From NCBI GenBank assembly GCA_022711495.1, contig JAKLEX010000001.1:436882-500881 (forward strand): a stretch of DNA of 64,000 bases, read 5' to 3'. The position numbers and the translations under genes are program-made. How positions within the stretch are numbered: position 1 is the stretch's first letter; every line of letters begins with the position of its first letter. The notes beneath the pieces were generated by a model that did not search any database, was not told where the DNA came from, and was given only the letters and a program-made list of their open reading frames with translations. The DNA comes from Patescibacteria group bacterium. GTDB lineage: Bacteria > Patescibacteriota > Minisyncoccia > Phycocordibacterales > JAACPR01. Of the stretch, positions 661 to 63,949 are shown in pieces.

Positions 661-766
661 TTTATCTCACACAGGATACGAGAATATTGACAATATCTCT
701 ATATTTGTTATAATATAACAAGGATTTGAGTGAACGTTAGGTAAAATCACCAAAAAGGAGATCAGA

Positions 767-988
767 ATGAGGAGATGGATTCGGTTCTTTTTCGGAAGTC
801 CGAGGCGCGCGGTGGCAACATTGAGCGTGGTCGCCATCCTATGGTTGGTCAATTGGACCAACCCCGGGCTTATCGCCGGAGTGGCGATGCGGACAATGCA
901 CGAGCTTCAACCGCTGATTGAGGGGGGCATCATCCTCCTTATAATGTACGGCGGATTCCGAATGATTATCTACGGCCTGAAGAAATAA
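767..988 (+). CDS. Small hydrophobic membrane protein of about two TM segments. Hypothetical.
   Basis: Strong RBS AAAAGGAGATCAGAATG lies upstream and a rho-independent terminator follows. The ORF is hydrophobic. Confidence 0.4.
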   Translation: MRRWIRFFFGSPRRAVATLSVVAILWLVNWTNPGLIAGVAMRTMHELQPLIEGGIILLIMYGGFRMIIYGLKK

Positions 989-1039
989 CGGCCGGATAAT
1001 CGCTGGCCCATGGCCATAGCGACGGTGCGAACAAAAACC

Positions 1040-1082
1040 GAAAAACCGCTACGCAGAGATTGCTTAGCGGTTTTTTATTTTG
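1040..1082. terminator. Bidirectional intrinsic terminator. Stem CCGCTA/TAGCGG, with A-tract upstream and T-tract downstream.
   Basis: The hairpin aaccgcta-cgcagagattgc-ttagcggtt is followed by TTTTTTATTTT. The minus-strand version follows tRNA-Phe. Confidence 0.5.
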
Positions 1083-1125
1083 ATGTCACGCTTATCGGCA
1101 CGGGCAATGATTTTGATACTAAGTG

Positions 1126-4365: not shown

Positions 4366-6048
4366 CTAACCGGAAAGCTCCTCTTGGTCTATCAGGACAT
4401 TTCTGGTGCGCCAGACTTTATTTTTTATTGATTTGGCAACTTCCAAGATTTCCTCGTTTCGCAATAAAATCAGAATCAGCGCGCCAACAACTAATCCGAC
4501 GACGCCCGACAAAAATCCTTGCAAAAATATTCCGACTAATCGTGATTGATCCAGAATAACAGCAAAAAACTGTAGAGAAACATAAGACACCACGCCGGCG
4601 ATTAAAGAAGCAAACATTGTTTGAACCAGAGTCCGCCAAATAGTTAAAGAAAATCCACGGAAATCTTTTTCAAAAATAACCCACAATAAAACTACATTGA
4701 TGATAGACCCGACAGAAAAAGCCAGCGGCAGCATCAAAACAACCGAACCGGGCAAAGAAGAAACTCGCAACAGACTTTCAAAGAAATGACGAAAGCCAAC
4801 TGACGAATTAAAGATTTCGGCAAAAACAAAAGTCAGGGCGATGGTAATAATCATTGAAAAAAGATTTATCAAAAGCGGTTTCTTGGTCTGGCCGGCGGAA
4901 TAATATCCCCGGACAAACAGCAAAACTAGGCTCTGGGCCAGAGCCGAGATCGAGAAAATAGCTAGTGCTGCGGCCGTTAATTTGGTATCGGCCCAGTCAA
5001 ATTCGCCCGTTCCCAGAACAGTTCTGACGATCTGAGCACGCAAGACGATAAACATGACAATGATCGGTGTAGACCAAAAAATAATATGTCGGGCGGCAGC
5101 GATTAAATGGCCGAGAAAATCTTGGTGGTTTCCATCAGAAAAAAGTCTTGATAAGGTCGGGAAGGCCGCCATGGAGTAACTTACACCAATTATGGCCAAA
5201 GGAACGGCTTGTAAGTTATAAGAAAAATTAAAAATGGCAATAGAACCAGAAATCAGGGTGCCAGCAACCGCCACGAAAACAAATAAAATCAATTGCGTTG
5301 AGCCGAGAGTGATGGCTCGCGGCAAAGAAACCAAAACAACTTCCCTAACTACTGGCCAATTAATTTTCAAAGTTAATTTTGGAATAAGACGATTTCTAGC
5401 CACTGAAGGAAGCTGAATGATGACATGAAGTAATAATCCAACGACAACGCCGTAAATTAGACCGATAGTGCCAAAAACTGGATAAAAGAAAACAATTCCA
5501 ACGATAATACCAAGATTATAGACAACCGGGCTCATGGCATAAACAAAAAATCGGCGATAGGTTTGCACGATACTGCCAAAAAGTTGCGAGATGCCAAGTA
5601 GGATTGGCGATAAAAGCAGGATTCTGGTAAACAAAATTAGATCTCCGCCATACTGCCCCTTAACCAAAAGCGGCATAAAAGTTTTCAAGATAGTTGGAAT
5701 AAAAATAAAAACCAGAACAGATGTGGCCAAAACGGCAATCATGAATATTGAAAATAAGCTGTCAATCATTTCTTTCATTTTAGACTTGTCTAAAATAGTT
5801 CTAGACAAAAAAGGAATTAGTACAGAAGCAGAAATAAAAGAAGTTACCAAGACAAACAGAAAATCTGGAATTCTAAAAGAGGCGTAGTAAATATCAACAA
5901 TTTCCGAGGCACCGAAAGTATGAGCCAGCAATCTGTCCCTGATGACACCAAGAATTTGCGAAAAAAAAGTGAAAAAAGCCAACAAATAAGCGGCTTCGTG
6001 GAGACCCTTGATTTCCCTATTAAAAAAGCGGAGGATTCGCTCGACCAT
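4366..6048 (-). CDS. murJ: Lipid II flippase MurJ (MviN family)
   Basis: The 560-aa protein is polytopic with about 14 TM segments. The N-terminus (LLAFFTFFSQILGVIRDRLLAHTFGAS...DIYYASFRIPDF) is characteristic of MurJ. Confidence 0.85.
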   Translation of the reverse strand: MVERILRFFNREIKGLHEAAYLLAFFTFFSQILGVIRDRLLAHTFGASEIVDIYYASFRIPDFLFVLVTSFISASVLIPFLSRTILDKSKMKEMIDSLFSIFMIAVLATSVLVFIFIPTILKTFMPLLVKGQYGGDLILFTRILLLSPILLGISQLFGSIVQTYRRFFVYAMSPVVYNLGIIVGIVFFYPVFGTIGLIYGVVVGLLLHVIIQLPSVARNRLIPKLTLKINWPVVREVVLVSLPRAITLGSTQLILFVFVAVAGTLISGSIAIFNFSYNLQAVPLAIIGVSYSMAAFPTLSRLFSDGNHQDFLGHLIAAARHIIFWSTPIIVMFIVLRAQIVRTVLGTGEFDWADTKLTAAALAIFSISALAQSLVLLFVRGYYSAGQTKKPLLINLFSMIITIALTFVFAEIFNSSVGFRHFFESLLRVSSLPGSVVLMLPLAFSVGSIINVVLLWVIFEKDFRGFSLTIWRTLVQTMFASLIAGVVSYVSLQFFAVILDQSRLVGIFLQGFLSGVVGLVVGALILILLRNEEILEVAKSIKNKVWRTRNVLIDQEELSG

Positions 6049-6103: not shown

Positions 6104-6108
6104 TTTTT

Positions 6109-6501
6109 GCGAACGTATCTATAAGCCGAATTCTGTTGAAAGTAATAATTTATCTGGGCTCAAGGTCGCCCTTGAGCTCTAGCGGCACTCTGACACGCGG
6201 CCCTTGCGGAACCACCATCAGCACGGCCTTGCACGCAAGTAAGGATTTTGCCGTTTCACCCCGACAATTACTTGTCGGACTCATCCAAATCATTTTCCTC
6301 GAGGGGTAAATGATTTGGAAGCTCTTTCCTTTCGGAAAAAAGCGTCTCTGCTCGCACCTCTTCGGAAAAGAATCTGTTACCAGAAACTTTTCTTTAGGCG
6401 GGTGTTACCCGCTACCGTTTTGCTGTCACTTGCGCGACAGCGCGTGTTCGGACTTTCCTCTCCTCACGTAAAACGCGAGGAGTAATTACTCGGTACGTCC
6501 G
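6109..6501 (-). ncRNA. rnpB: RNase P RNA, bacterial type A-like (rnpB)
   Basis: The minus strand carries P4 5' strand GAGGAGAGGAAAGUCCGAAC, GGGUAACACCCGCC (E. coli has CCAGGUAACGCCUGG), GGUGAAACGG, and P4 3' strand ACAGAAUUCGGCUUAUAG (E. coli has ACAGAACCCGGCUUA). Stems pair 5'-CGGACGUA with 3'-UACGUUCG as P1. Length is about 393 nt. There is no credible ORF; the track ORF 6412..6660 is spurious. Confidence 0.8.
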
Positions 6502-6506
6502 AAATA

Positions 6507-6535
6507 ATAATACAATAAAATTAGGAGAAAGTAAA
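6507..6535 (-). promoter_or_regulatory. Putative sigma70 promoter of rnpB
   Basis: The minus strand reads TTTACT-N17-TATTAT, ending about 6-7 nt before the inferred RNA 5' end. Confidence 0.4.
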
Positions 6536-6607
6536 TGATGATAAATAAAAAGTTGGGTTACCCACGATGTGAGTAACCCAACGGCGAGACAAGACGACTT
6601 TTTCCCC

Positions 6608-7120
6608 TCAAGCGCCTCGAGTGATAGCAAAGGCAACTTCGGCGCCGACCACATCCTCAAGATTTGAGGCGCTCAACTTGAGCCAACCGCCACGCCTCTC
6701 CACTTGTACCACCCACAAATCCCCGTTACGTTCACGAAGAATCGTACCGCCGAAGATTATGACCCTGGCGGCGAACCGGTGTTCCTCAAGAACCATGTCC
6801 CAGAGGTTTTTGTTTCCCCTGCCCGTCGTGATAAATGCTTTCGCGAATCGAGCATCGAGAGGAATAAAACCGTAGCTTTTTATTCGCTCAAGCTTCCTCT
6901 TGATCGACGTCTCCCCGACTATCCCCCTCTTGGATGCATCGTCGCAGACCATTGCGGTTGTGTTCAGTGTTAAAAGGGCTTCGCTTCTCTTGTCCTGACA
7001 AAAGACCGAAAAATCGTCACCGAAAACCTGAACTGGATCAAATGGCGGCAAAGTCATTTGGCTTTCCCCCAAATACGGACCGGTCAAAACGACGGGCTTA
7101 GATGATAATCCTTTCGACAT
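6608..7120 (-). CDS. Hypothetical protein. GC-rich orphan of about 170 aa with strong expression signals.
   Basis: The ORF is at roughly 52% GC against a ~38% background. The ATG at 7118-7120 is preceded by AAGAGGAG. The track ORF begins at a TTG six nt upstream. A hairpin plus T-tract terminator lies at about 6550-6590. No family recognised. Confidence 0.5.
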   Translation of the reverse strand: MSKGLSSKPVVLTGPYLGESQMTLPPFDPVQVFGDDFSVFCQDKRSEALLTLNTTAMVCDDASKRGIVGETSIKRKLERIKSYGFIPLDARFAKAFITTGRGNKNLWDMVLEEHRFAARVIIFGGTILRERNGDLWVVQVERRGGWLKLSASNLEDVVGAEVAFAITRGA

Positions 7121-7176
7121 TGTCAATCTCCTCTTGGTAAGTTTGTTTTACTCGTTCACCCCACACTCCGTGACCT

Positions 7177-7204
7177 ATTATACAGATACTTTATACTTTG
7201 TCAA
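7177..7204 (-). promoter_or_regulatory. Consensus sigma70 promoter (TTGACA-N16-TATAAT) for the 170-aa orphan gene
   Basis: The minus strand reads TTGACAAAGTATAAAGTATCTGTATAAT. A GAGGAG RBS and ATG follow 50-60 nt downstream. Confidence 0.55.
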
Positions 7205-7219
7205 CTCTTTATTTATCGC

Positions 7220-9529
7220 CTATTTTTGCGGCTTTATATCATCAATCTCACACACCCCGCTGGCACAAGCCAACTCTTGCTTCAAATTAGTCTCATCTTT
7301 CTGTTCATAAACCAGAATTTTTGAGAAATCAATGTGGTCCACCGTTTGCAACATCTTTTCATATCTTTCTTTACTGATTTCTTCATACGGCGCCAACTGA
7401 TAGACATAATCAAACCTCGGCAAAAAAGAAAGGCCGCCGATGTACTCCCAGTTTTCATAAACCCAGTTGCCAACTCGAATCCATTCCTCCGGTCCGATCG
7501 AAATCGTGGTGGAAGGATTATGCTCGGTGTAATTTTTCTTGACCATTTTCCAGTGTTCCAGCTGGCCGATGGCATCAAGCGAATCTTTGGTGACCGCCCC
7601 GTCCGGAGCTTTTACCGGAAACTCAATAACAAAAGTTGAGGCGTTACCTTCAGTAAAACCGACTTCAGGATAGAAAGGCACGGCTTGATCTTTCAGCATT
7701 CGGAAAAGAGAATCGGTTTTGCCGATGCGGACACGTCGAATATAGTACGGAGCATGGCGTGGATGCATTCCGGACGAACTGTCAACGACTTGAGAGACGG
7801 TTCCAGATGGTTTCGTCGTCGTCACGCAAGTAGAAGGTTTTATGCCAAATTTTTTGGCGTAAATTTTATTAATGCGAATAGCTTCGTCGCGTAATTTTGC
7901 CAGAACTTTTTCGTCGCGAACTGTTGGACAATCCCATTGACCAGTCAGCGAAACACCGAGAAGCGCTTCTTTCTGGCAATTTTGCTTCCACTCTTTTCCG
8001 AGATAGCCGAAATTTGTCAAAGTTGCCTGATAAGTACCAAGGATCGTGGCTAAGCGTACCTTTTCAAGCAAAGTTTTCTCGGTGTCCTCTGCTCGGCAAA
8101 CAACTTCTGACAAATTACAAAACTGCTTTGATTTCAAGACAATTTCTCCGCAAGGGTTAGTTCCATACGGATAATTTTCTCCATTCATTTTTACACGACG
8201 CGCCGGTAATTGCTTATTCAAAGAACCGCGATTAAAAATTCCTCTTTCACCAGAACCGGATTTTACCAAGGCCAGCCACTCATCCATAAATTCTTCGGCT
8301 TTGGGTTTTTGCTCGTAAATGGCGGAGTTATTAGCCATCGTTCTCTGCGGCGCATTAACCCAAAATTGGCCATTTTTAGCGTTGCGCATCTCCATATCGT
8401 CCAAATCCGACAAAGAAATCATGGCGCTACGACGAACTCCGCCGACAACGACAATCTGCCCGATCATGCAACACAAATCGTGCACATCAATATTAGAAAG
8501 TCTTCGGCCTTGTTTTTCCAGAATTCGTCCGCGGGCAAAATCCAGTAATTGTTTCAGCGGACCCGGACCCGAAGCTTTTCCGCCCATGATTTTCAGTCGC
8601 GCGCCTTCCGGACGAACTTGAGAATAATCAAAAGTGATATCTTTGCCGCCAAACCAAGCTTTTAATCCGGTCGTCAGCGCGTTGCACCAACCTTCTTTGC
8701 TGTCGCCGATAACGTGGACCGGCAACTTAACGCCGGTTTGTTTTTGAATTTGCGGAAGTTTTTGCACACTTTGACTTTCAACAGAAAAACCGACGCCCGT
8801 GCCACACATAGAGACATACATGATTTCAGCAAAGTCAGTCAATTTTTCCGGCGCGATATAAGAACAATTGTAAGCGCAGACATTGGTTTTGCGCGCGGCC
8901 ACGCCGGCGAATTGCATCAAGCGCATTGAAGGCATAACTCTTTGTTCCAAAATAGCTTGGCGTAATTCTTCGTATTCAGAATCTTTTAATTTGCTTTTAA
9001 GATTCTCTTTCATGAAAGAAATGTAGCGACCGACCGTTTCAATCCAGGTCTCGCGGCGATTTTCTTCTTCAATCCAGCGTGCGTAAGTTCGGTAATAAAC
9101 AAATTCGGCCAAAGGATTGCGGAAATATTTTTTGCTTTCTTCGGCTAGCTGACGAATATTGGCCGGAATCTCCGTGATTCGCGCGGCGCGAATTTTTGAA
9201 CGTTCTTCGCGGTATAAAATATAGTGCTTGGCCGTCCGAATATAACCGCTTAAAATGAGTTGTTGCTCAACAATGTCCTGAACTCCTTCAACCGTCGGCA
9301 AAAAATCCTTGATGGTCTTGGTTACAGTGACCAATTCGTCGTAAACCTTGCCGGCGACGAACTCGGCTTCTTTTCTCTCTCCTTCGTTGGTCTTGGCAAA
9401 AGCTTTGGAAATGGCAATGGTAATCTTTTCCAGATTAAATGGCACAATTGTTCCGTCTCTTTTCTTAATTTTTGGGATTAGCGAGGGCGCGATGACAGGA
9501 CTTTGGCTTTTCTTTGAAGAACGAGGCAT
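7220..9529 (-). CDS. Ribonucleoside-diphosphate reductase catalytic subunit with N-terminal ATP cone. Probably class II (B12-dependent), because no nrdB is adjacent.
   Basis: The 769-aa protein has an ATP-cone start (IVPFNLEKITIAISKAF). RNR barrel motifs are present: NPCGEI-like, SNLSEVVCRAED with the active-site Cys, and a C-terminal CASGVCEI redox pair. The class is assigned by inference only. Confidence 0.75.
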   Translation of the reverse strand: MPRSSKKSQSPVIAPSLIPKIKKRDGTIVPFNLEKITIAISKAFAKTNEGERKEAEFVAGKVYDELVTVTKTIKDFLPTVEGVQDIVEQQLILSGYIRTAKHYILYREERSKIRAARITEIPANIRQLAEESKKYFRNPLAEFVYYRTYARWIEEENRRETWIETVGRYISFMKENLKSKLKDSEYEELRQAILEQRVMPSMRLMQFAGVAARKTNVCAYNCSYIAPEKLTDFAEIMYVSMCGTGVGFSVESQSVQKLPQIQKQTGVKLPVHVIGDSKEGWCNALTTGLKAWFGGKDITFDYSQVRPEGARLKIMGGKASGPGPLKQLLDFARGRILEKQGRRLSNIDVHDLCCMIGQIVVVGGVRRSAMISLSDLDDMEMRNAKNGQFWVNAPQRTMANNSAIYEQKPKAEEFMDEWLALVKSGSGERGIFNRGSLNKQLPARRVKMNGENYPYGTNPCGEIVLKSKQFCNLSEVVCRAEDTEKTLLEKVRLATILGTYQATLTNFGYLGKEWKQNCQKEALLGVSLTGQWDCPTVRDEKVLAKLRDEAIRINKIYAKKFGIKPSTCVTTTKPSGTVSQVVDSSSGMHPRHAPYYIRRVRIGKTDSLFRMLKDQAVPFYPEVGFTEGNASTFVIEFPVKAPDGAVTKDSLDAIGQLEHWKMVKKNYTEHNPSTTISIGPEEWIRVGNWVYENWEYIGGLSFLPRFDYVYQLAPYEEISKERYEKMLQTVDHIDFSKILVYEQKDETNLKQELACASGVCEIDDIKPQK

Positions 9530-23482: not shown

Positions 23483-23521
23483 AACCCCCTAGGAATTCTT
23501 GCGAATTTCTAGGGGGTTTTG
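23483..23521. terminator. Bidirectional intrinsic terminator. Stem CCCCCTAG/CTAGGGGG.
   Basis: The plus strand has the stem followed by TTTTG. The minus strand has it followed by TTATTTATTTG, immediately after the stop of ORF 23535..24038. Confidence 0.55.
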
Positions 23522-23534
23522 AGTGGCCGCTTCC

Positions 23535-24038
23535 TTAGTTCGGACAGAGCTGCCCCTCGATGAGCAGGCAGTCGTGAGTCTCGATCGCCCGAGGCGATCG
23601 ACGAACCACGCGCGGACGCGCGAAGCGCTGTGCCCGCCAGTTGGGGTCGGCACGGTGGGTAACCAAGACACGTACCCGTCCCGACCGGTCCACACCCAGG
23701 GTCCGGCCGAAACAGCGCCGATGGCGCCGACTCGGGAAACTGATATCAATCGGTTGTTTGAGCGCGGGCGGTTTGGGCATCTCGGCCATTTCCACCGGCT
23801 CATCCTTGATGCCTGCCGCTAAGCGGGCATTTTTCATCAGGCGCCGATATCGGAACTGCGAACGCGCATAGATGCCGGCCAAAAAATCCAGGACTATAAA
23901 CACGGCGATTAAACCAGCGGAAGTTGCCGCAGAGATCCACGACCCTTCGCCGTCTGGAATGCCGGACACCACCCATCCAAAGATGGCCGCCACGAGAACC
24001 GCCAGAACAGATTCTACTAGACTTATTGAACCCTTCAC
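23535..24038 (-). CDS. Hypothetical membrane protein in a ~60% GC island. Two TM segments and an Arg-rich C-terminus.
   Basis: The RBS AAGGGAGG precedes the ATG. A terminator follows directly. GC is far above background, and overlapping ORFs in other frames are judged to be GC artefacts. Confidence 0.4.
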   Translation of the reverse strand: MKGSISLVESVLAVLVAAIFGWVVSGIPDGEGSWISAATSAGLIAVFIVLDFLAGIYARSQFRYRRLMKNARLAAGIKDEPVEMAEMPKPPALKQPIDISFPSRRHRRCFGRTLGVDRSGRVRVLVTHRADPNWRAQRFARPRVVRRSPRAIETHDCLLIEGQLCPN

Positions 24039-41847: not shown

Positions 41848-41907
41848 ATCTTAACTAATTTACCATTAACACGGCTTCATGTTAAATGATTGGCGCACTT
41901 CAAAAAA

Positions 41908-41952
41908 GTTTTCCAAAAATAAAGGCCCCGAAGCGTATAACGCTCGGGGCCT
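41908..41952 (-). terminator. Strong intrinsic terminator (GGCCCCGAGCG...CGCTTCGGGGCC plus TTTATTTTTGG on the minus strand)
   Basis: A perfect GC-rich stem followed by a T-tract, directly downstream of ORF 41969..42399. Confidence 0.6.
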
Positions 41953-41968
41953 TGTTGTGTTGAAGCGG

Positions 41969-42399
41969 CTAACTTTCGTCGGCGGTAATGGCAGCACCGG
42001 CCCGACCAGCCAGAGCGGACGGATGTGCCCGTCGGTCGCGTTGTTCCTGACATTTGGCGATCAGGTGTTGGCGCGTGGACCACAGATGAGCCAAGTTGCA
42101 TCGAGCAACAAATTCCTGCGCCGTAAGCGCCAGGCTTTTGTGCTGACACAATTCAAACTCGATGGTAATGCCCCGTGCCATATCGATCTGCTGATCGATT
42201 TCCGCGATCTGCTTGCGCAGAGCGCGAATGCCGAGAGCGCCCTTTTCGCCGGTATCGTGACGCTGAACCGAAGGCGAGACCAAGACCGCGCCAGGTTCAA
42301 CAGAAGTCATGGCGTAAAAGTATTCACCGCCGTAGCAGACTGTCGTCGGCAGAATTCCTGCCACCAACATCACCAGCACCAACATTCCGATCACCTTCA
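41969..42399 (-). CDS. GC-rich small secreted hypothetical protein (signal peptide)
   Basis: The RBS AAGGAGAAGGGGG precedes the ATG (MKVIGMLVLVMLVAG...). The gene lies in a ~60% GC patch, and longer ORFs in other frames are judged to be artefacts. Confidence 0.4.
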
Positions 42400-42561
42400 T
42401 TTCCCCCTTCTCCTTTTGTTTCTGTTTGGTTAACCTATTTAACTTCAATACTCTCAATGTGCAAAGTCTAGCGAGAAATTCTACAAGATCAGCTGAAAGC
42501 GTCAACTCCAACTGTTAAAGAAAAGTGGATAAGCTAAAAATAGCGCTAATTTCGGGTATAT

Positions 42562-43777: not shown

Positions 43778-44185
43778 ATGCCAACATTCACAGTTGACAT
43801 GCACCAGCCAAGCATGAAAATCCTGGAAGCAATGCGCGGTTATTTGCAGGGCCTCATTGACAATTTGTCAAGAGCGATGTCCTGGCTGGAACGGCTGATT
43901 TCAGCCGAAAATCAATGGAAAAAAGAGGCCGCGCTGGATCAAGATCAGCAACGGATCAGAGAACTGCGTCTCTGGGCCGAAGAAGCGGCTTGCAATCTTA
44001 AGTTTTATTACAATGAGATTGCCAGACATTTGTCCTCCTTTCCCGAACTGATGCTGGCGTTAAATATCCCCATCCAGAGGGTCAACGCCGATTACGGCAT
44101 GCTTCTAAGGAATAAGGGACTAGCCGACGGAAGTCTCATCAAGATATCGGGAAGCGTCAGTGACCCAAAATGCCAAACGGCTTAG
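43778..44185 (+). CDS. Hypothetical protein
   Basis: ORF only (135 aa, helical). No recognised family. Confidence 0.35.
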   Translation: MPTFTVDMHQPSMKILEAMRGYLQGLIDNLSRAMSWLERLISAENQWKKEAALDQDQQRIRELRLWAEEAACNLKFYYNEIARHLSSFPELMLALNIPIQRVNADYGMLLRNKGLADGSLIKISGSVSDPKCQTA

Positions 44186-44687: not shown

Positions 44688-45530
44688 TTATTTGAATGTG
44701 GCTCCGACTCGGTAATAGCGCTGGGTAACTGCCTCCGAATCGGAAAAAACAAACTCCTCCCCCGTCCCAGAGACATTATTAGTCAGAAGCGTCCACTCCG
44801 ACGCCAGAGAAAGGTCCTCTGTGTAATACACCGCATACAGACGGCTTGTGGTTGTCTGTATTGAGAAAGAATACCCATTCGTATCCCAGCCCTCATCAAG
44901 ACAGACGGGGTGCGAGATCACTTCGCCAGTTCCCGACGTCGTAGCAAGATTAAATATCACATGCCACCCGATGGCGCCAATAGCGTCCCCGAAACTGGCA
45001 CTGCCGTCTACTAAACCAGGATCAAATAGCAGGTCAAGAACTAGTGTGTCACCGTTCAGTTGGACATTGGTTACGGTACCCCACGCATAGCTGGCCACTG
45101 GACGGCAATTTCGACTCGTCCGTCCGTAATCCGTCTCTCGCGGACCTCTTGATTCGTAATACGACAACGTCCATTCAGCATCGCCACGATCCACATCAAA
45201 TTCAAAGTTGGTCCCTGTGGGATCTTTGAAAAATGGGCTCATGATGTCTACCAGACTAGCATTGTTGATATTCAACCCATACGCCTCCGGGTCATTGAAC
45301 TCATCGCCATATAATCTAAAACTGGACGCCACTGCCACGTGCCGTGCCGTGACAATCACATCTGAATTAGCGATTTGAGTTGACCAATTAGTCTTTTCCG
45401 CCGGTGTGGCGCCAGAATAGAGAATCGCTGAAGTAAAAAAAATATCAGTAATTAATTCCGACGCGGTCCCATGTTGATATGGCATGATTACTGATGCCAT
45501 AACTAGCCATGAAAAGATTCGACTATTCAT
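44688..45530 (-). CDS. Secreted hypothetical protein with moderately elevated GC
   Basis: Signal peptide MNSRIFSWLVMASVIMPYQHG. No recognised domain. Confidence 0.4.
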   Translation of the reverse strand: MNSRIFSWLVMASVIMPYQHGTASELITDIFFTSAILYSGATPAEKTNWSTQIANSDVIVTARHVAVASSFRLYGDEFNDPEAYGLNINNASLVDIMSPFFKDPTGTNFEFDVDRGDAEWTLSYYESRGPRETDYGRTSRNCRPVASYAWGTVTNVQLNGDTLVLDLLFDPGLVDGSASFGDAIGAIGWHVIFNLATTSGTGEVISHPVCLDEGWDTNGYSFSIQTTTSRLYAVYYTEDLSLASEWTLLTNNVSGTGEEFVFSDSEAVTQRYYRVGATFK

Positions 45531-57415: not shown

Positions 57416-57880
57416 CTACCATTTGAAGTCCGGCCAGTCTACGGGGGTAGACTGAATCTCTTCGTCGTAGAAGACTACGCAGAGAACGAGCGTTCCGTTC
57501 CCGATTTTCCTGATTCGGAAGAAGAACGTGGAAGAATGAAAAGCTCTCTGATAGAACTCCTCGATCGCCTTTTCGTCCAGATTATCCCGGCCGTAGTAGA
57601 GCTCCTTTTCGCTAACCGCATCATAGAACTCCACACTGGCCGTGGCGTTGACGAACCCGACCGTATCCGGCGCAATAGCCCGCGCTAGAATCTTGCCAAC
57701 ATCGTCAAGCCGAAAATCAAAACTCCGGGTCTGACCGTCAACATCGGTAATCTGGACACCGAAGTCCTTTGGCTGATCACCGACAATCAGATAGTCACAC
57801 AGCGAATCGTCTTCGTCCGGGTGGTACATGTAACCAACGACGGTTCCATCCACCGCGACGATCTGAATATACGGCTTCAT
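57416..57880 (-). CDS. Hypothetical protein (first gene of the GC-elevated island)
   Basis: 154-aa ORF, roughly 50% GC. Its upstream region carries GCGCGCCGTCTG-TTTGACAT-N17-TATAGT and a TGGAACTA box. Confidence 0.4.
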   Translation of the reverse strand: MKPYIQIVAVDGTVVGYMYHPDEDDSLCDYLIVGDQPKDFGVQITDVDGQTRSFDFRLDDVGKILARAIAPDTVGFVNATASVEFYDAVSEKELYYGRDNLDEKAIEEFYQRAFHSSTFFFRIRKIGNGTLVLCVVFYDEEIQSTPVDWPDFKW

Positions 57881-58152: not shown

Positions 58153-58869
58153 CTAGTTCTGCATAACGCGTGCCGCTTCTTCCATCCTGACGATTTCCGC
58201 CGGAGAGAATGGGGTGTTCGTATATATCCAGCAAATTCCCAGTTTTCTCTCGATCTCCAGCTTGTGCACGGCGTCCGATTTCGATTCGTCTACCGAACCG
58301 GGCTTACCGCGCCCGCACTTAGAACAATATTCCCCCATGGCGCCCGAGCCAGCCGCCCCGCCGTGGACCATGCCATTTTTATACTCGTGCTGACACTTGC
58401 CGGCACAAACATTGCAAATGGCCCACTCGCACTCCCGCAGACCGATCATCGGAGATCGGCACTGCTGACAAAGACCAAGTGAGATGACAAAAGCATCTTT
58501 TCCCTCGATCTTCGCCGCGCCCATAAAAACCGGTTGACATCCGCCAAAATAGACGGCATCTCTGATTCCGCCAACTTCAGCCTTGTCATCATTGCTGGTC
58601 CCCTGAATCGTCACACGAATCCCGCCGACCAACTCAGTCGAGTGGACAGTGACGCAACCCTTTGTTCTCGTACGCTTCCGAGGCTTAGAGCCGAAGTGAA
58701 GGAATATCTTACAGTATTTCCCTTCGTCACCGTCGTCCTGACGACCGCCATATCTGAACGTATCGCCGGGTTTAATAGTCGACATAAGGCGAGAGAATGT
58801 CTCGCGCTCCACTTCCGTAAAAGGAACCAAAACGAAAACCCTCTTCGCGTCGTCGCGGATTATCTTCAT
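58153..58869 (-). CDS. Hypothetical protein with a Cys-rich C-terminal region (multiple CxxC, possible Zn ribbons)
   Basis: CQQCRSP...CEWAICNVCAGKCQHE...CSKCGRG, at roughly 55% GC. Confidence 0.45.
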   Translation of the reverse strand: MKIIRDDAKRVFVLVPFTEVERETFSRLMSTIKPGDTFRYGGRQDDGDEGKYCKIFLHFGSKPRKRTRTKGCVTVHSTELVGGIRVTIQGTSNDDKAEVGGIRDAVYFGGCQPVFMGAAKIEGKDAFVISLGLCQQCRSPMIGLRECEWAICNVCAGKCQHEYKNGMVHGGAAGSGAMGEYCSKCGRGKPGSVDESKSDAVHKLEIERKLGICWIYTNTPFSPAEIVRMEEAARVMQN

Positions 58870-63445: not shown

Positions 63446-63949
63446 TTAGGCACTGACGGCTTCCAGACTTCGGAAGAATTGGTTTTTCTTCCCTTTCTTC
63501 CCGGCCCGAATCTGGCGATCATGCTTGTCGCATACTTTTGTCGGATCGTTTGACGTCCGACAAATGCAGCATGGCTCCTTCTGCTTGGCCTTGGCGCCAG
63601 CGGTCTCGGATTTCTCCGTCTCCGGATCTCCGGGCAGAGCCATCGGCAATCGCCGTGTCCGAGCCTGAAGCGGCTTATGAAACAGCTTCCGGTTCTCTTC
63701 GCTGGACAGCTCGGCTCGGCATTCCGCACACAGACTTGGAGAGTTCCCGCCCCCGCATCGCCAACACTTCGCTTCCTCGCGCGGAGCCCATTGGCTCGGC
63801 GTGACGAGCGAAGTTTCCGGTTGCGGCGGCAAAGACTCTGTCTTCGCGGGTTCCACCGGTTGCTCGGAAATCTCGGCCAAACTTCTCGGAGCCTCGTCAA
63901 CACAAAGCCCCAAATTCATCTGCCCGGCGGCATCATGATGATGCTTCAT
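63446..63949 (-). CDS. GC-rich Cys-rich hypothetical protein (two CxxC-containing clusters; possible zinc ribbon)
   Basis: The RBS AAAGGAGAATGCGATG precedes the start. The protein contains CWRCGGG...CAEC and CCICRT...CDKHD, at roughly 60% GC. A terminator-like hairpin lies at about 63396-63425. Confidence 0.45.
   Translation of the reverse strand: MKHHHDAAGQMNLGLCVDEAPRSLAEISEQPVEPAKTESLPPQPETSLVTPSQWAPREEAKCWRCGGGNSPSLCAECRAELSSEENRKLFHKPLQARTRRLPMALPGDPETEKSETAGAKAKQKEPCCICRTSNDPTKVCDKHDRQIRAGKKGKKNQFFRSLEAVSA

What the first reader, a model, noticed from the sequence alone, without database searches (positions are those of the whole stretch)
6608..7204. GC-rich 170-aa orphan gene with textbook promoter and RBS, wedged between rnpB and the ribonucleotide reductase gene
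The ORF is at roughly 52% GC against ~38% surroundings. It sits behind a perfect TTGACA-N16-TATAAT promoter and an AAGAGGAG RBS, which is unusual strength for this genome, where most genes lack an SD. It has its own hairpin terminator.

The protein is soluble, with conserved-looking acidic and Gly motifs (DDFSVFCQD, ITTGRGNKNLWDMVLEEH, RRGGW). I recognise no known fold.

The strong expression signals plus a foreign composition suggest an acquired, highly expressed accessory function, perhaps a toxin/immunity-like or nucleic-acid-acting protein. That interpretation is speculative.
Basis: partly seen in the sequence, partly recalled or inferred. Interest (0 to 1): 0.55.

Follow-up and report, generated by a model that had tools for sequence, protein, structure and literature searches.

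The report
Solo, decayed DGR variable-protein homolog
The GC-rich "orphan" gene is a very diverged, shortened, stand-alone copy of the small lectin-fold protein that diversity-generating retroelements hypermutate in Patescibacteria, and it shows no sign of still being hypermutated.

Summary
The described features are real. They are a 170-aa ORF (6608-7120, minus strand), a perfect TTGACA-N16-TATAAT promoter, an AAGAGGAG ribosome-binding site, a 14-bp hairpin terminator, rnpB downstream and a class II ribonucleotide reductase upstream.

The gene is not a true orphan. It has no relative above 50% identity, but it is a distant homolog (58 bits against a family-only profile, about 29% identity) of an unnamed family of at least 224 proteins with no Pfam match. 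Most are about 210 aa and from Patescibacteria.

Full-length members lie next to bAvd and a reverse transcriptase. They carry a C-terminal variable repeat and a template repeat that differ almost only at template adenines. These are diversity-generating retroelement (DGR) target proteins.

High GC and a strong SD are traits of the family, which accounts for the "foreign" look.

The window copy lacks the N-terminal domain, the Trp scaffold and the conserved 3' end of the variable repeat. About 83 kb around it holds no RT or Avd, and the 64-kb window holds no template repeat. It is identical in four samples.

Best reading: a retired DGR target, now a fixed-specificity binding protein. Remote targeting by a DGR elsewhere in the genome is not excluded.

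The parts
7177..7204 (-). Sigma-70-type promoter, TTGACA-N16-TATAAT, 12 of 12 consensus positions
   Evidence: One of three perfect sites in the 64-kb window.
7128..7135 (-). Shine-Dalgarno box AAGAGGAG, 7 nt upstream of the ATG
   Evidence: It is the only SD match of 5 nt or more among 49 ORFs of at least 100 aa. A GGAG box in the same position occurs in 10 of 10 family genes aligned.
6608..7120 (-). CDS of 170 aa (stop codon 6608-6610). NCBI annotates 170 aa (HRY31327.1, HRZ34626.1). JGI called a 149-aa version starting at Met22.
6743..7045 (-). Residues 26-126: the conserved body of the C-type-lectin-like domain (motifs PFDP, D-x-RS, KLxR.K, LDA, F-x-GT)
   Evidence: The family-only HMM aligns here. 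21 of 42 strongly conserved family columns are retained. Block-mean pLDDT runs from 56 to 97.
6611..6742 (-). Residues 127-170: the counterpart of the family's DGR variable repeat (VR), here degenerate
   Evidence: Only 5 of 17 conserved VR-scaffold columns are kept. All scaffold Trp positions (W142, W147, W149, W153) and the PSAVLAS 3' end are lost. No template repeat occurs in the window.
6542..6582 (-). Intrinsic-terminator-like hairpin (14-bp stem, 3-nt loop) followed by a T-run
   Evidence: Family genes elsewhere also end with a strong hairpin plus T-run 55-85 nt after the stop.

Best explanation
The gene encodes a highly diverged, N-terminally shortened, stand-alone homolog of the small C-type-lectin-fold variable protein that diversity-generating retroelements (DGRs) diversify in Patescibacteria.

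In canonical family members a reverse transcriptase, with the bAvd accessory protein, copies a template repeat. Template adenines are copied with errors. The cDNA then replaces the last ~130 nt of the gene, rewriting the ligand-binding surface.

The window copy keeps the lectin-fold body and the family's strong translation-initiation region. It has lost the N-terminal domain, the Trp scaffold of the variable repeat and the conserved 3' homing-end sequence. It also has no local RT, Avd or template repeat.

I infer that it is a retired DGR target. It would be a binding protein frozen in one specificity, transcribed as its own unit from a consensus promoter and ended by its own terminator, in a Candidatus Paceibacterota genome.

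Shown: homology, the DGR association of the family, the predicted fold class, the absence of local DGR parts, and sequence invariance across samples.

Inferred: that it is expressed, that it binds a ligand, and that it was once diversified.
For: Homology:
- phmmer against 1.84 billion representatives finds six small homologs at E 4e-6 to 9e-4.
- A profile search finds 224 proteins. Most of those listed are about 205-212 aa, nearly all those with a source name are from Patescibacteria, and none has a Pfam domain.
- A family-only HMM scores the window protein 58.2 bits, against at most 1.7 bits for 200 shuffles.

The family is a DGR target:
- Four of four full-length members examined (P0036, P0048, P0041, P0018) lie just upstream of bAvd (PF22296) plus RVT_1.
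- Their last 126-133 nt are repeated 457-487 nt downstream at 84-88% identity.
- 14 of 16, 15 of 15 and 18 of 21 mismatches sit at template adenines.
- Database variants of two members (clusters P0065 and P0034) differ almost only in this C-terminal stretch.

Fold:
- The AlphaFold2 model built with the 122-sequence alignment has pLDDT 77 and pTM 0.74.

Family traits that explain the observation:
- Gene GC exceeds flank GC in 15 of 18 loci.
- A GGAG box lies 7-9 nt before the ATG in 10 of 10 aligned genes. The window's GGAGATTGACAATGTCGAA resembles L144's GGAGCTGACAATGTCTAA.

Retirement:
- No RT or Avd by tblastn in the window or in 9-10 kb beyond each end.
- No adenine-tolerant template repeat in the window.
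- VR scaffold retained at 5 of 17 positions against 21 of 42 in the body.
- Identity to the family is 29%, while members share 61%.
- DNA is 100% identical in four samples, and only one protein sequence exists in the database.
- Other short solo members exist among housekeeping genes (P0008, P0116, L135).
Against: - Only about 83 kb of a contig of about 553 kb could be searched. A DGR acting on a remote target elsewhere in the genome is therefore not excluded.
- The four samples appear to be one clonal population from related reactors, and assemblies report a consensus. Low-level VR heterogeneity would be invisible.
- No close orthologs exist, so purifying selection (dN/dS) could not be tested.
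- Expression and ligand binding are inferred from sequence signals only.
- No signal peptide or transmembrane segment is evident, so the cellular location is unknown.
Confidence: 0.6

Rival explanations
1. It is still an active DGR target, diversified in trans by a DGR located elsewhere in the ~553-kb genome. The template repeat would differ from the canonical family one.
For: - It belongs by homology to a DGR target family.
- About half of the family loci with long flanks also lack a local RT or template repeat.
- Remote targets are acknowledged in the literature (PMC8144416).
- About 470 kb of the genome could not be inspected.
Against: - The VR-equivalent has lost the invariant Trp scaffold and the conserved PSAVLAS-coding 3' end that nearly all other members examined keep, including most solo ones.
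- Its codons do not follow the NNC pattern expected from AAC template codons.
- It includes an AAG codon that adenine mutagenesis could turn into a stop (my reading of the codon list).
- One single sequence is found in four samples and all sources, whereas active members show C-terminal variants within one 90% cluster.
- No RT or Avd in about 83 kb, and no template repeat in the 64-kb window.
Confidence: 0.2
2. It is a decaying relic of a lost DGR cassette with no remaining function. The open frame and signals would simply not yet have eroded.
For: - Very long branch: 29% identity against 61% within the family.
- The N-terminal domain and the VR scaffold are lost.
- No close orthologs exist in any other genome.
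Against: - A 170-codon frame stays open.
- Half of the conserved core positions are kept, and the model is confident over much of the core: block-mean pLDDT 88-97 for residues 21-50, 81-100 and 121-150.
- A 12/12 promoter, the strongest SD among the window's larger ORFs and a clean terminator are all intact in a streamlined genome of about 0.55 Mb.
Confidence: 0.12
3. It is a toxin/immunity, defence or nucleic-acid-acting protein. Alternatively, it is a Kelch-type repeat protein fragment.
For: - It is a small stand-alone gene with strong signals.
- phmmer also hit two Kelch-repeat proteins through the motif IIFGG...RNGDLW (P0003 and P0006).
Against: - No PADLOC, Pfam, NCBIfam or PHROG match at E up to 10, apart from one PHROG of unknown function at E 0.31.
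- There is no partner gene. The neighbours are rnpB and the ribonucleotide reductase.
- The Kelch hits cover only 45-56 residues, and their score is inflated by 4-8 repeats in the target.
Confidence: 0.04
4. The region is not protein-coding. It would be a GC-rich structured RNA next to rnpB.
For: GC-rich islands in AT-rich genomes are often RNA genes, and the region lies beside rnpB.
Against: - Protein-level homology at 58 bits across residues 26-159 to a family of 224 proteins.
- The Rfam scan at E up to 1 over 6450-7260 finds only the edge of rnpB.
- An SD and ATG are correctly placed.
Confidence: 0.02

Closest known systems
Target (variable) proteins of Patescibacteria/CPR DGRs (RT 'clade 2' of Roux et al. 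2021, PMC8144416; first surveyed by Paul et al. 2017, a paper not held in the library)
   Same: - Sequence homology over residues 26-159.
- Same predicted lectin-like fold class.
- No transmembrane or other recognisable domain, as the literature reports for CPR targets.
- Same GC-rich composition and strong SD.
- A Patescibacteria host.
   Different: - No adjacent bAvd, RT or template repeat.
- N-terminal domain of about 55-69 aa missing.
- The VR scaffold (Trp ladder) and the conserved 3' end are lost.
- Only about 29% identical, while members share about 61%.
- No sequence variants in the databases.
Structurally characterised DGR variable proteins with the C-type lectin fold: TvpA of Treponema denticola (PDB 2y3c), Mtd of Bordetella phage BPP-1, and the archaeal and Thermus variable proteins described in PMC5006420 and PMC6328139
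   Same: - It also superposes on FGE-type and classical C-type lectin domains.
- In the family the variable residues are C-terminal, as in these proteins.
   Different: - No detectable sequence similarity: the profile search of PDB gives no relevant hit.
- It is much smaller than TvpA (170 aa against the 277-residue 2y3c chain).
- The window copy shows no evidence of diversification.
Short solo members of the same family (P0008 at 162 aa in L008, P0116 at 151 aa in L009, and a 156-aa ORF in L135)
   Same: - They lack the N-terminal domain.
- They sit alone among housekeeping genes with no RT or Avd within 5-8 kb.
- They are GC-rich relative to their flanks and end in a terminator hairpin.
   Different: They still keep most of the Trp scaffold of the variable repeat (for example LCLYSRGGQWLWRFYWLNIDW). 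They are about 56-59% identical to canonical members. The window protein has lost these features.

Membership tests
Unnamed Patescibacteria DGR variable-protein family (no Pfam or NCBIfam model) | Significant sequence similarity to the family profile | tested here: met
   A family-only HMM scores 58.2 bits over residues 26-159, and 200 shuffles score at most 1.7 bits. phmmer gives E 4e-6 to 9e-4 against 1.84 billion representatives.
Unnamed Patescibacteria DGR variable-protein family (no Pfam or NCBIfam model) | N-terminal helical domain of about 55-69 aa, giving a total length of about 205-212 aa | tested here: not met
   The HMM alignment starts at profile position 70 of 212. Only 99 nt lie between the ATG and the upstream gene, so no remnant can be present. 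13 of 121 aligned members are similarly short.
Unnamed Patescibacteria DGR variable-protein family (no Pfam or NCBIfam model) | Conserved VR scaffold (YVL.LYW..G.W.W.Y.WL...W) and a PSAVLAS-coding 3' end | tested here: not met
   5 of 17 conserved columns are kept. W142, W147, W149 and W153 are replaced by R, L, L and N. The C-terminus is EVAFAITRGA.
C-type lectin fold (CLec), the usual scaffold of DGR variable proteins | Three-dimensional similarity to CLec domains | tested here: met
   [not shown]
Active DGR target gene | A cognate template repeat differing from the variable repeat essentially only at template adenines | tested here: inconclusive
   None occurs in the 64-kb window. The best candidate has 39 non-adenine mismatches in 132 nt, which is background. 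The remaining ~470 kb of the genome could not be read. The metagenome scan failed for technical reasons, and the genome is not in genome contigs.
Active DGR target gene | A DGR reverse transcriptase and accessory protein (bAvd) in the neighbourhood | tested here: not met
   tblastn with three RTs and three Avds from family loci finds nothing at E up to 10 in the window, nor at E up to 0.1 in about 9-10 kb beyond each end.
Active DGR target gene | Sequence variation confined to the variable repeat among samples or strains | tested here: not met
   A single protein sequence occurs in all sources. DNA is 100% identical in samples 3300010429, 3300009776, 3300025902 and SRR5007150. Positive control: clusters P0065 and P0034 vary almost only in the VR.
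Kelch repeat proteins | Several tandem blades of about 45-55 aa that match Kelch profiles | tested here: not met
   No Pfam Kelch hit at E up to 10. A single motif-like stretch (residues 97-160) matches repeats in P0003 and P0006.
Anti-phage defence or toxin-antitoxin components | A match to known defence or toxin models, or a paired partner gene | tested here: not met
   PADLOC gives 0 families at E up to 10. The gene is monocistronic, lying between rnpB and the ribonucleotide reductase.

The most novel reading that the evidence does not exclude
The gene, together with the other short solo copies (P0008, P0116, L135), represents a recurrent route by which a DGR-evolved binder is 'retired'. 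The copy is detached from the retroelement, stripped of its N-terminal domain and frozen in one specificity. It is then kept as a constitutively and strongly expressed host gene in ultra-small symbiotic bacteria. That would make it a natural record of one winning variant of a hypermutation system, and a handle on what CPR DGR targets actually bind.
Probability: 0.4. Interest if true: 0.55.

Novelty: new variant of a known kind. Interest (0 to 1): 0.36.

Why it matters
DGR targets of the Candidate Phyla Radiation are abundant, but their function is unknown. They have no recognisable domains and no Pfam model (PMC8144416).

This analysis delimits one such family of at least 224 members. It shows that high GC and a strong SD travel with the family. 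It also identifies stand-alone copies that appear to have left the diversification cycle.

A frozen, apparently strongly expressed copy is an easier experimental entry point than a hypervariable one. It offers a single sequence for structure determination and for ligand pull-downs.

For genome annotation, it replaces 'hypothetical protein' with 'DGR variable-protein-like, C-type lectin fold'.

Tried and rejected
- Pfam, NCBIfam, PHROGs, PADLOC and PDB sequence searches with the single protein gave nothing usable.
- A PDB search with the family profile gave only a chance-level hit at E 0.6.
- Single-sequence AlphaFold gave pLDDT 33 and was unusable.
- Foldseek against PDB and BFVD gave no hit below E 0.4. 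The afdb50 library was unavailable.
- Whole-contig search for a template repeat, first attempt. I used an IUPAC pattern that allowed the VR base or A at every position. 
- Second attempt. A corrected pattern anchored on TGG and CTT found nothing in genome contigs, not even the gene itself. That collection therefore does not hold this genome.
- Kelch-repeat relationship: rejected as similarity of a short motif, amplified by the repeats in the targets.
- ncRNA reading: rejected.
- Phage origin: no family member in IMG/VR viral contigs.
- dN/dS could not be computed, because every available copy is identical.
- Paul et al. 2017 could not be read because it is not held in the library.

Full report
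**1. The observation**

The minus strand carries a complete small expression unit.
- A perfect TTGACA-N16-TATAAT promoter at 7204..7177.
- AAGAGGAG at 7135..7128, 7 nt before an ATG at 7120.
- A 170-codon frame ending at 6608.
- A 14-bp-stem hairpin at 6582..6552 followed by a T-run.

Downstream lies rnpB (RF00010, 6106..6501, 103.9 bits against a gathering score of 100). Upstream lies a 769-aa ribonucleotide reductase with ATP-cone and RNR_Alpha domains (7220..9529).

The promoter is one of three 12/12 sites in the window. The SD is exceptional here. Of 49 ORFs of at least 100 aa, this is the only one with a match of 5 nt or more, and 45 have none worth the name. Several genes have TATAAT directly before the start codon, which suggests leaderless mRNAs.

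The GC contrast is real but smaller than stated. The ORF is 51.1% GC (GC3 56%) against 42.0% for the window. That is about 1.4 SD above the mean of 59 ORFs, and six other ORFs are at least 51% GC.

The organism is a Candidatus Paceibacterota MAG. NCBI holds the same 170-aa protein as HRY31327.1 and HRZ34626.1. JGI called a 149-aa version from Met22.

**2. Not an orphan**

Curated libraries give nothing. The word-indexed search finds only the protein itself.

An exhaustive phmmer run over 1.84 billion cluster representatives finds six small proteins at E 4e-6 to 9e-4. These align over residues 19-147 at most. It also finds two Kelch-repeat proteins that match only a 45-56-residue motif.

A profile of the small proteins retrieves 224 sequences. 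Most of those listed are about 205-212 aa. None has a Pfam domain. Those with a source name are called 'hypothetical protein', and nearly all come from Patescibacteria.

A profile built from the family alone scores the window protein 58.2 bits, against at most 1.7 bits for 200 shuffles. It aligns profile positions 70-199 of 212 to residues 26-159.

**3. What the family is**

All four full-length members whose contigs I fetched lie directly upstream of a divergently oriented bAvd gene (PF22296) and an RVT_1 reverse transcriptase.

In three of these loci the last 126-133 nt of the gene recur 457-487 nt downstream at 84-88% identity. 14 of 16, 15 of 15 and 18 of 21 differences lie where the downstream copy has adenine, often in AAC codons. 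In the fourth locus (L011) the adenine-tolerant scan finds the same kind of copy. This is the signature of diversity-generating retroelements: variable repeat, template repeat and adenine mutagenesis.

Database variants of two members differ almost exclusively in this C-terminal stretch.

Roux et al. 2021 describe a cellular DGR clade restricted to Patescibacteria. [quoted passage not shown] This family fits that description. No member occurs in IMG/VR viral contigs.

**4. Fold**

With the 122-sequence alignment, AlphaFold2 gives pLDDT 77 and pTM 0.74. Without the alignment it gives pLDDT 33.

- EgtB and PvdO.

Foldseek finds nothing. The assignment is therefore at fold level and depends on the model. 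It does agree with the known preference of DGRs for this scaffold (PMC5006420 and PMC6328139, listed).

**5. Why the gene looks foreign**

In 18 family loci the gene is GC-rich relative to its flanks in 15. Examples are 52 against 41, 58 against 41, 59 against 39 and 47 against 31%.

Ten of ten aligned family genes carry a GGAG box 7-9 nt before the ATG. The window's GGAGATTGACAATGTCGAA closely resembles GGAGCTGACAATGTCTAA in L144 and GGAGCTGATTATGTCGAA in L139. Most also end with a strong hairpin plus T-run.

They stand out here because the host genome is AT-richer and essentially SD-less.

**6. How the window copy differs**

- It lacks the N-terminal domain.
- It is 29% identical to family members, which share 61% among themselves.
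- In the lectin body it keeps 21 of 42 strongly conserved columns. In the VR-equivalent (residues 127-170) it keeps only 5 of 17. Every scaffold tryptophan is lost, as is the PSAVLAS-coding 3' end, which is conserved even at the DNA level in most members.
- tblastn with family RTs and Avds finds nothing in the 64-kb window or in 9-10 kb beyond each end.
- An adenine-tolerant scan finds no template repeat in the window.
- Four independent samples carry DNA 100% identical to the window over 7-17 kb each, and the databases hold one protein sequence only.
- Solo copies are not unique to this genome. P0008, P0116 and the L135 ORF are short and sit among housekeeping genes. Several full-length members also lack a local RT.

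**7. Interpretation**

The best-supported reading (confidence 0.6) is a retired DGR target. It would be a C-type-lectin-fold binding protein no longer coupled to the retroelement and fixed in one sequence. It is probably strongly expressed as a monocistronic unit.

The homology and the DGR nature of the family are well supported (about 0.9). Retirement, expression and ligand binding are inferences.

The main rival (0.2) is trans-targeting by a DGR in the roughly 470 kb of the genome that I could not read. A non-functional relic (0.12) is the next alternative. Toxin/defence, Kelch and ncRNA readings are poorly supported.

**8. What failed**

Two attempts to search the whole genome for a template repeat failed. 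One was badly designed and matched poly-A. The other showed that the genome is absent from the species-representative collection. The decisive test therefore remains a scan of the full contig and read-level diversity analysis.

**9. Verdict**

This is a real gene with real, unusually strong signals. It is explained as a divergent solo variant of a known kind of system, the DGR variable proteins of the CPR.

It is of modest interest in itself. It is useful for annotation and as a fixed-sequence entry point into an uncharacterised family.

Noticed in passing
window 687-1085 (+): A second stand-alone unit of the same style. It has a perfect TTGACA-N16-TATAAT promoter at 687-714 and an AAGGAG SD. 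A 73-aa ORF (767-988) looks by eye like a small protein with two hydrophobic segments. The region is 51-54% GC and ends in a hairpin with a T-run near 1040-1085. There is no Rfam match. The 381-nt stretch folds at z = -3.7.
   Followed up: partly
window, whole: The genome almost entirely lacks Shine-Dalgarno sequences: 45 of 49 ORFs have a match of 3 nt or fewer. Several genes have TATAAT immediately before the start codon, which suggests leaderless mRNAs. Examples are the genes starting at 6048(-), 19175(+), 47594(-), 49804(-) and 57310(-).
   Followed up: no
window 41879-42433 (+), 43778-44185 (+), 44688-45530 (-), 57416-57880 (-), 58153-58869 (-), 63446-63949 (-), 23489-23803 (-): Other ORFs well above the window's mean GC (48-62%) have no Pfam match either. 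In this window high GC goes with unannotated, possibly acquired genes. None resembles the DGR variable protein, RT or Avd.
   Followed up: partly
L134 555-1187 and L136 1246-1878: A DGR-linked family member has an in-frame stop codon inside its variable repeat (…WLGID*DAGNPS…). The two loci give the same C-terminal sequence, including the stop. One MAG is labelled Paceibacterota and the other 'Christensenella', so the second label is probably a binning error.
   Followed up: no
L006/L007 (920-kb contig labelled Syntrophobacteraceae); L137, L140, L141 (labelled Syntrophus or delta proteobacterium): Family members occur outside Patescibacteria. One has a complete Avd-RT-TR cassette on a 920-kb contig. 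Three are diverged copies (about 41% identity), lower in GC than their flanks, with no RT within 8 kb.
   Followed up: no
window 6106-6501 (-): The RNase P RNA scores only 103.9 bits against a gathering threshold of 100, so it is a divergent class A rnpB.
   Followed up: no
window 7057-7120 (-): The start codon is annotated differently in public records. JGI aa from Met22 and NCBI aa from Met1. The SD and the similarity of the initiation region to family genes favour Met1.
   Followed up: yes
cluster P0089 (P0089, P0135-P0137): This family member has an altered C-terminus (…PSAVCPQVSPQN). Four of its database variants show no differences in the variable repeat. It may be another copy that has stopped diversifying.
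   Followed up: no
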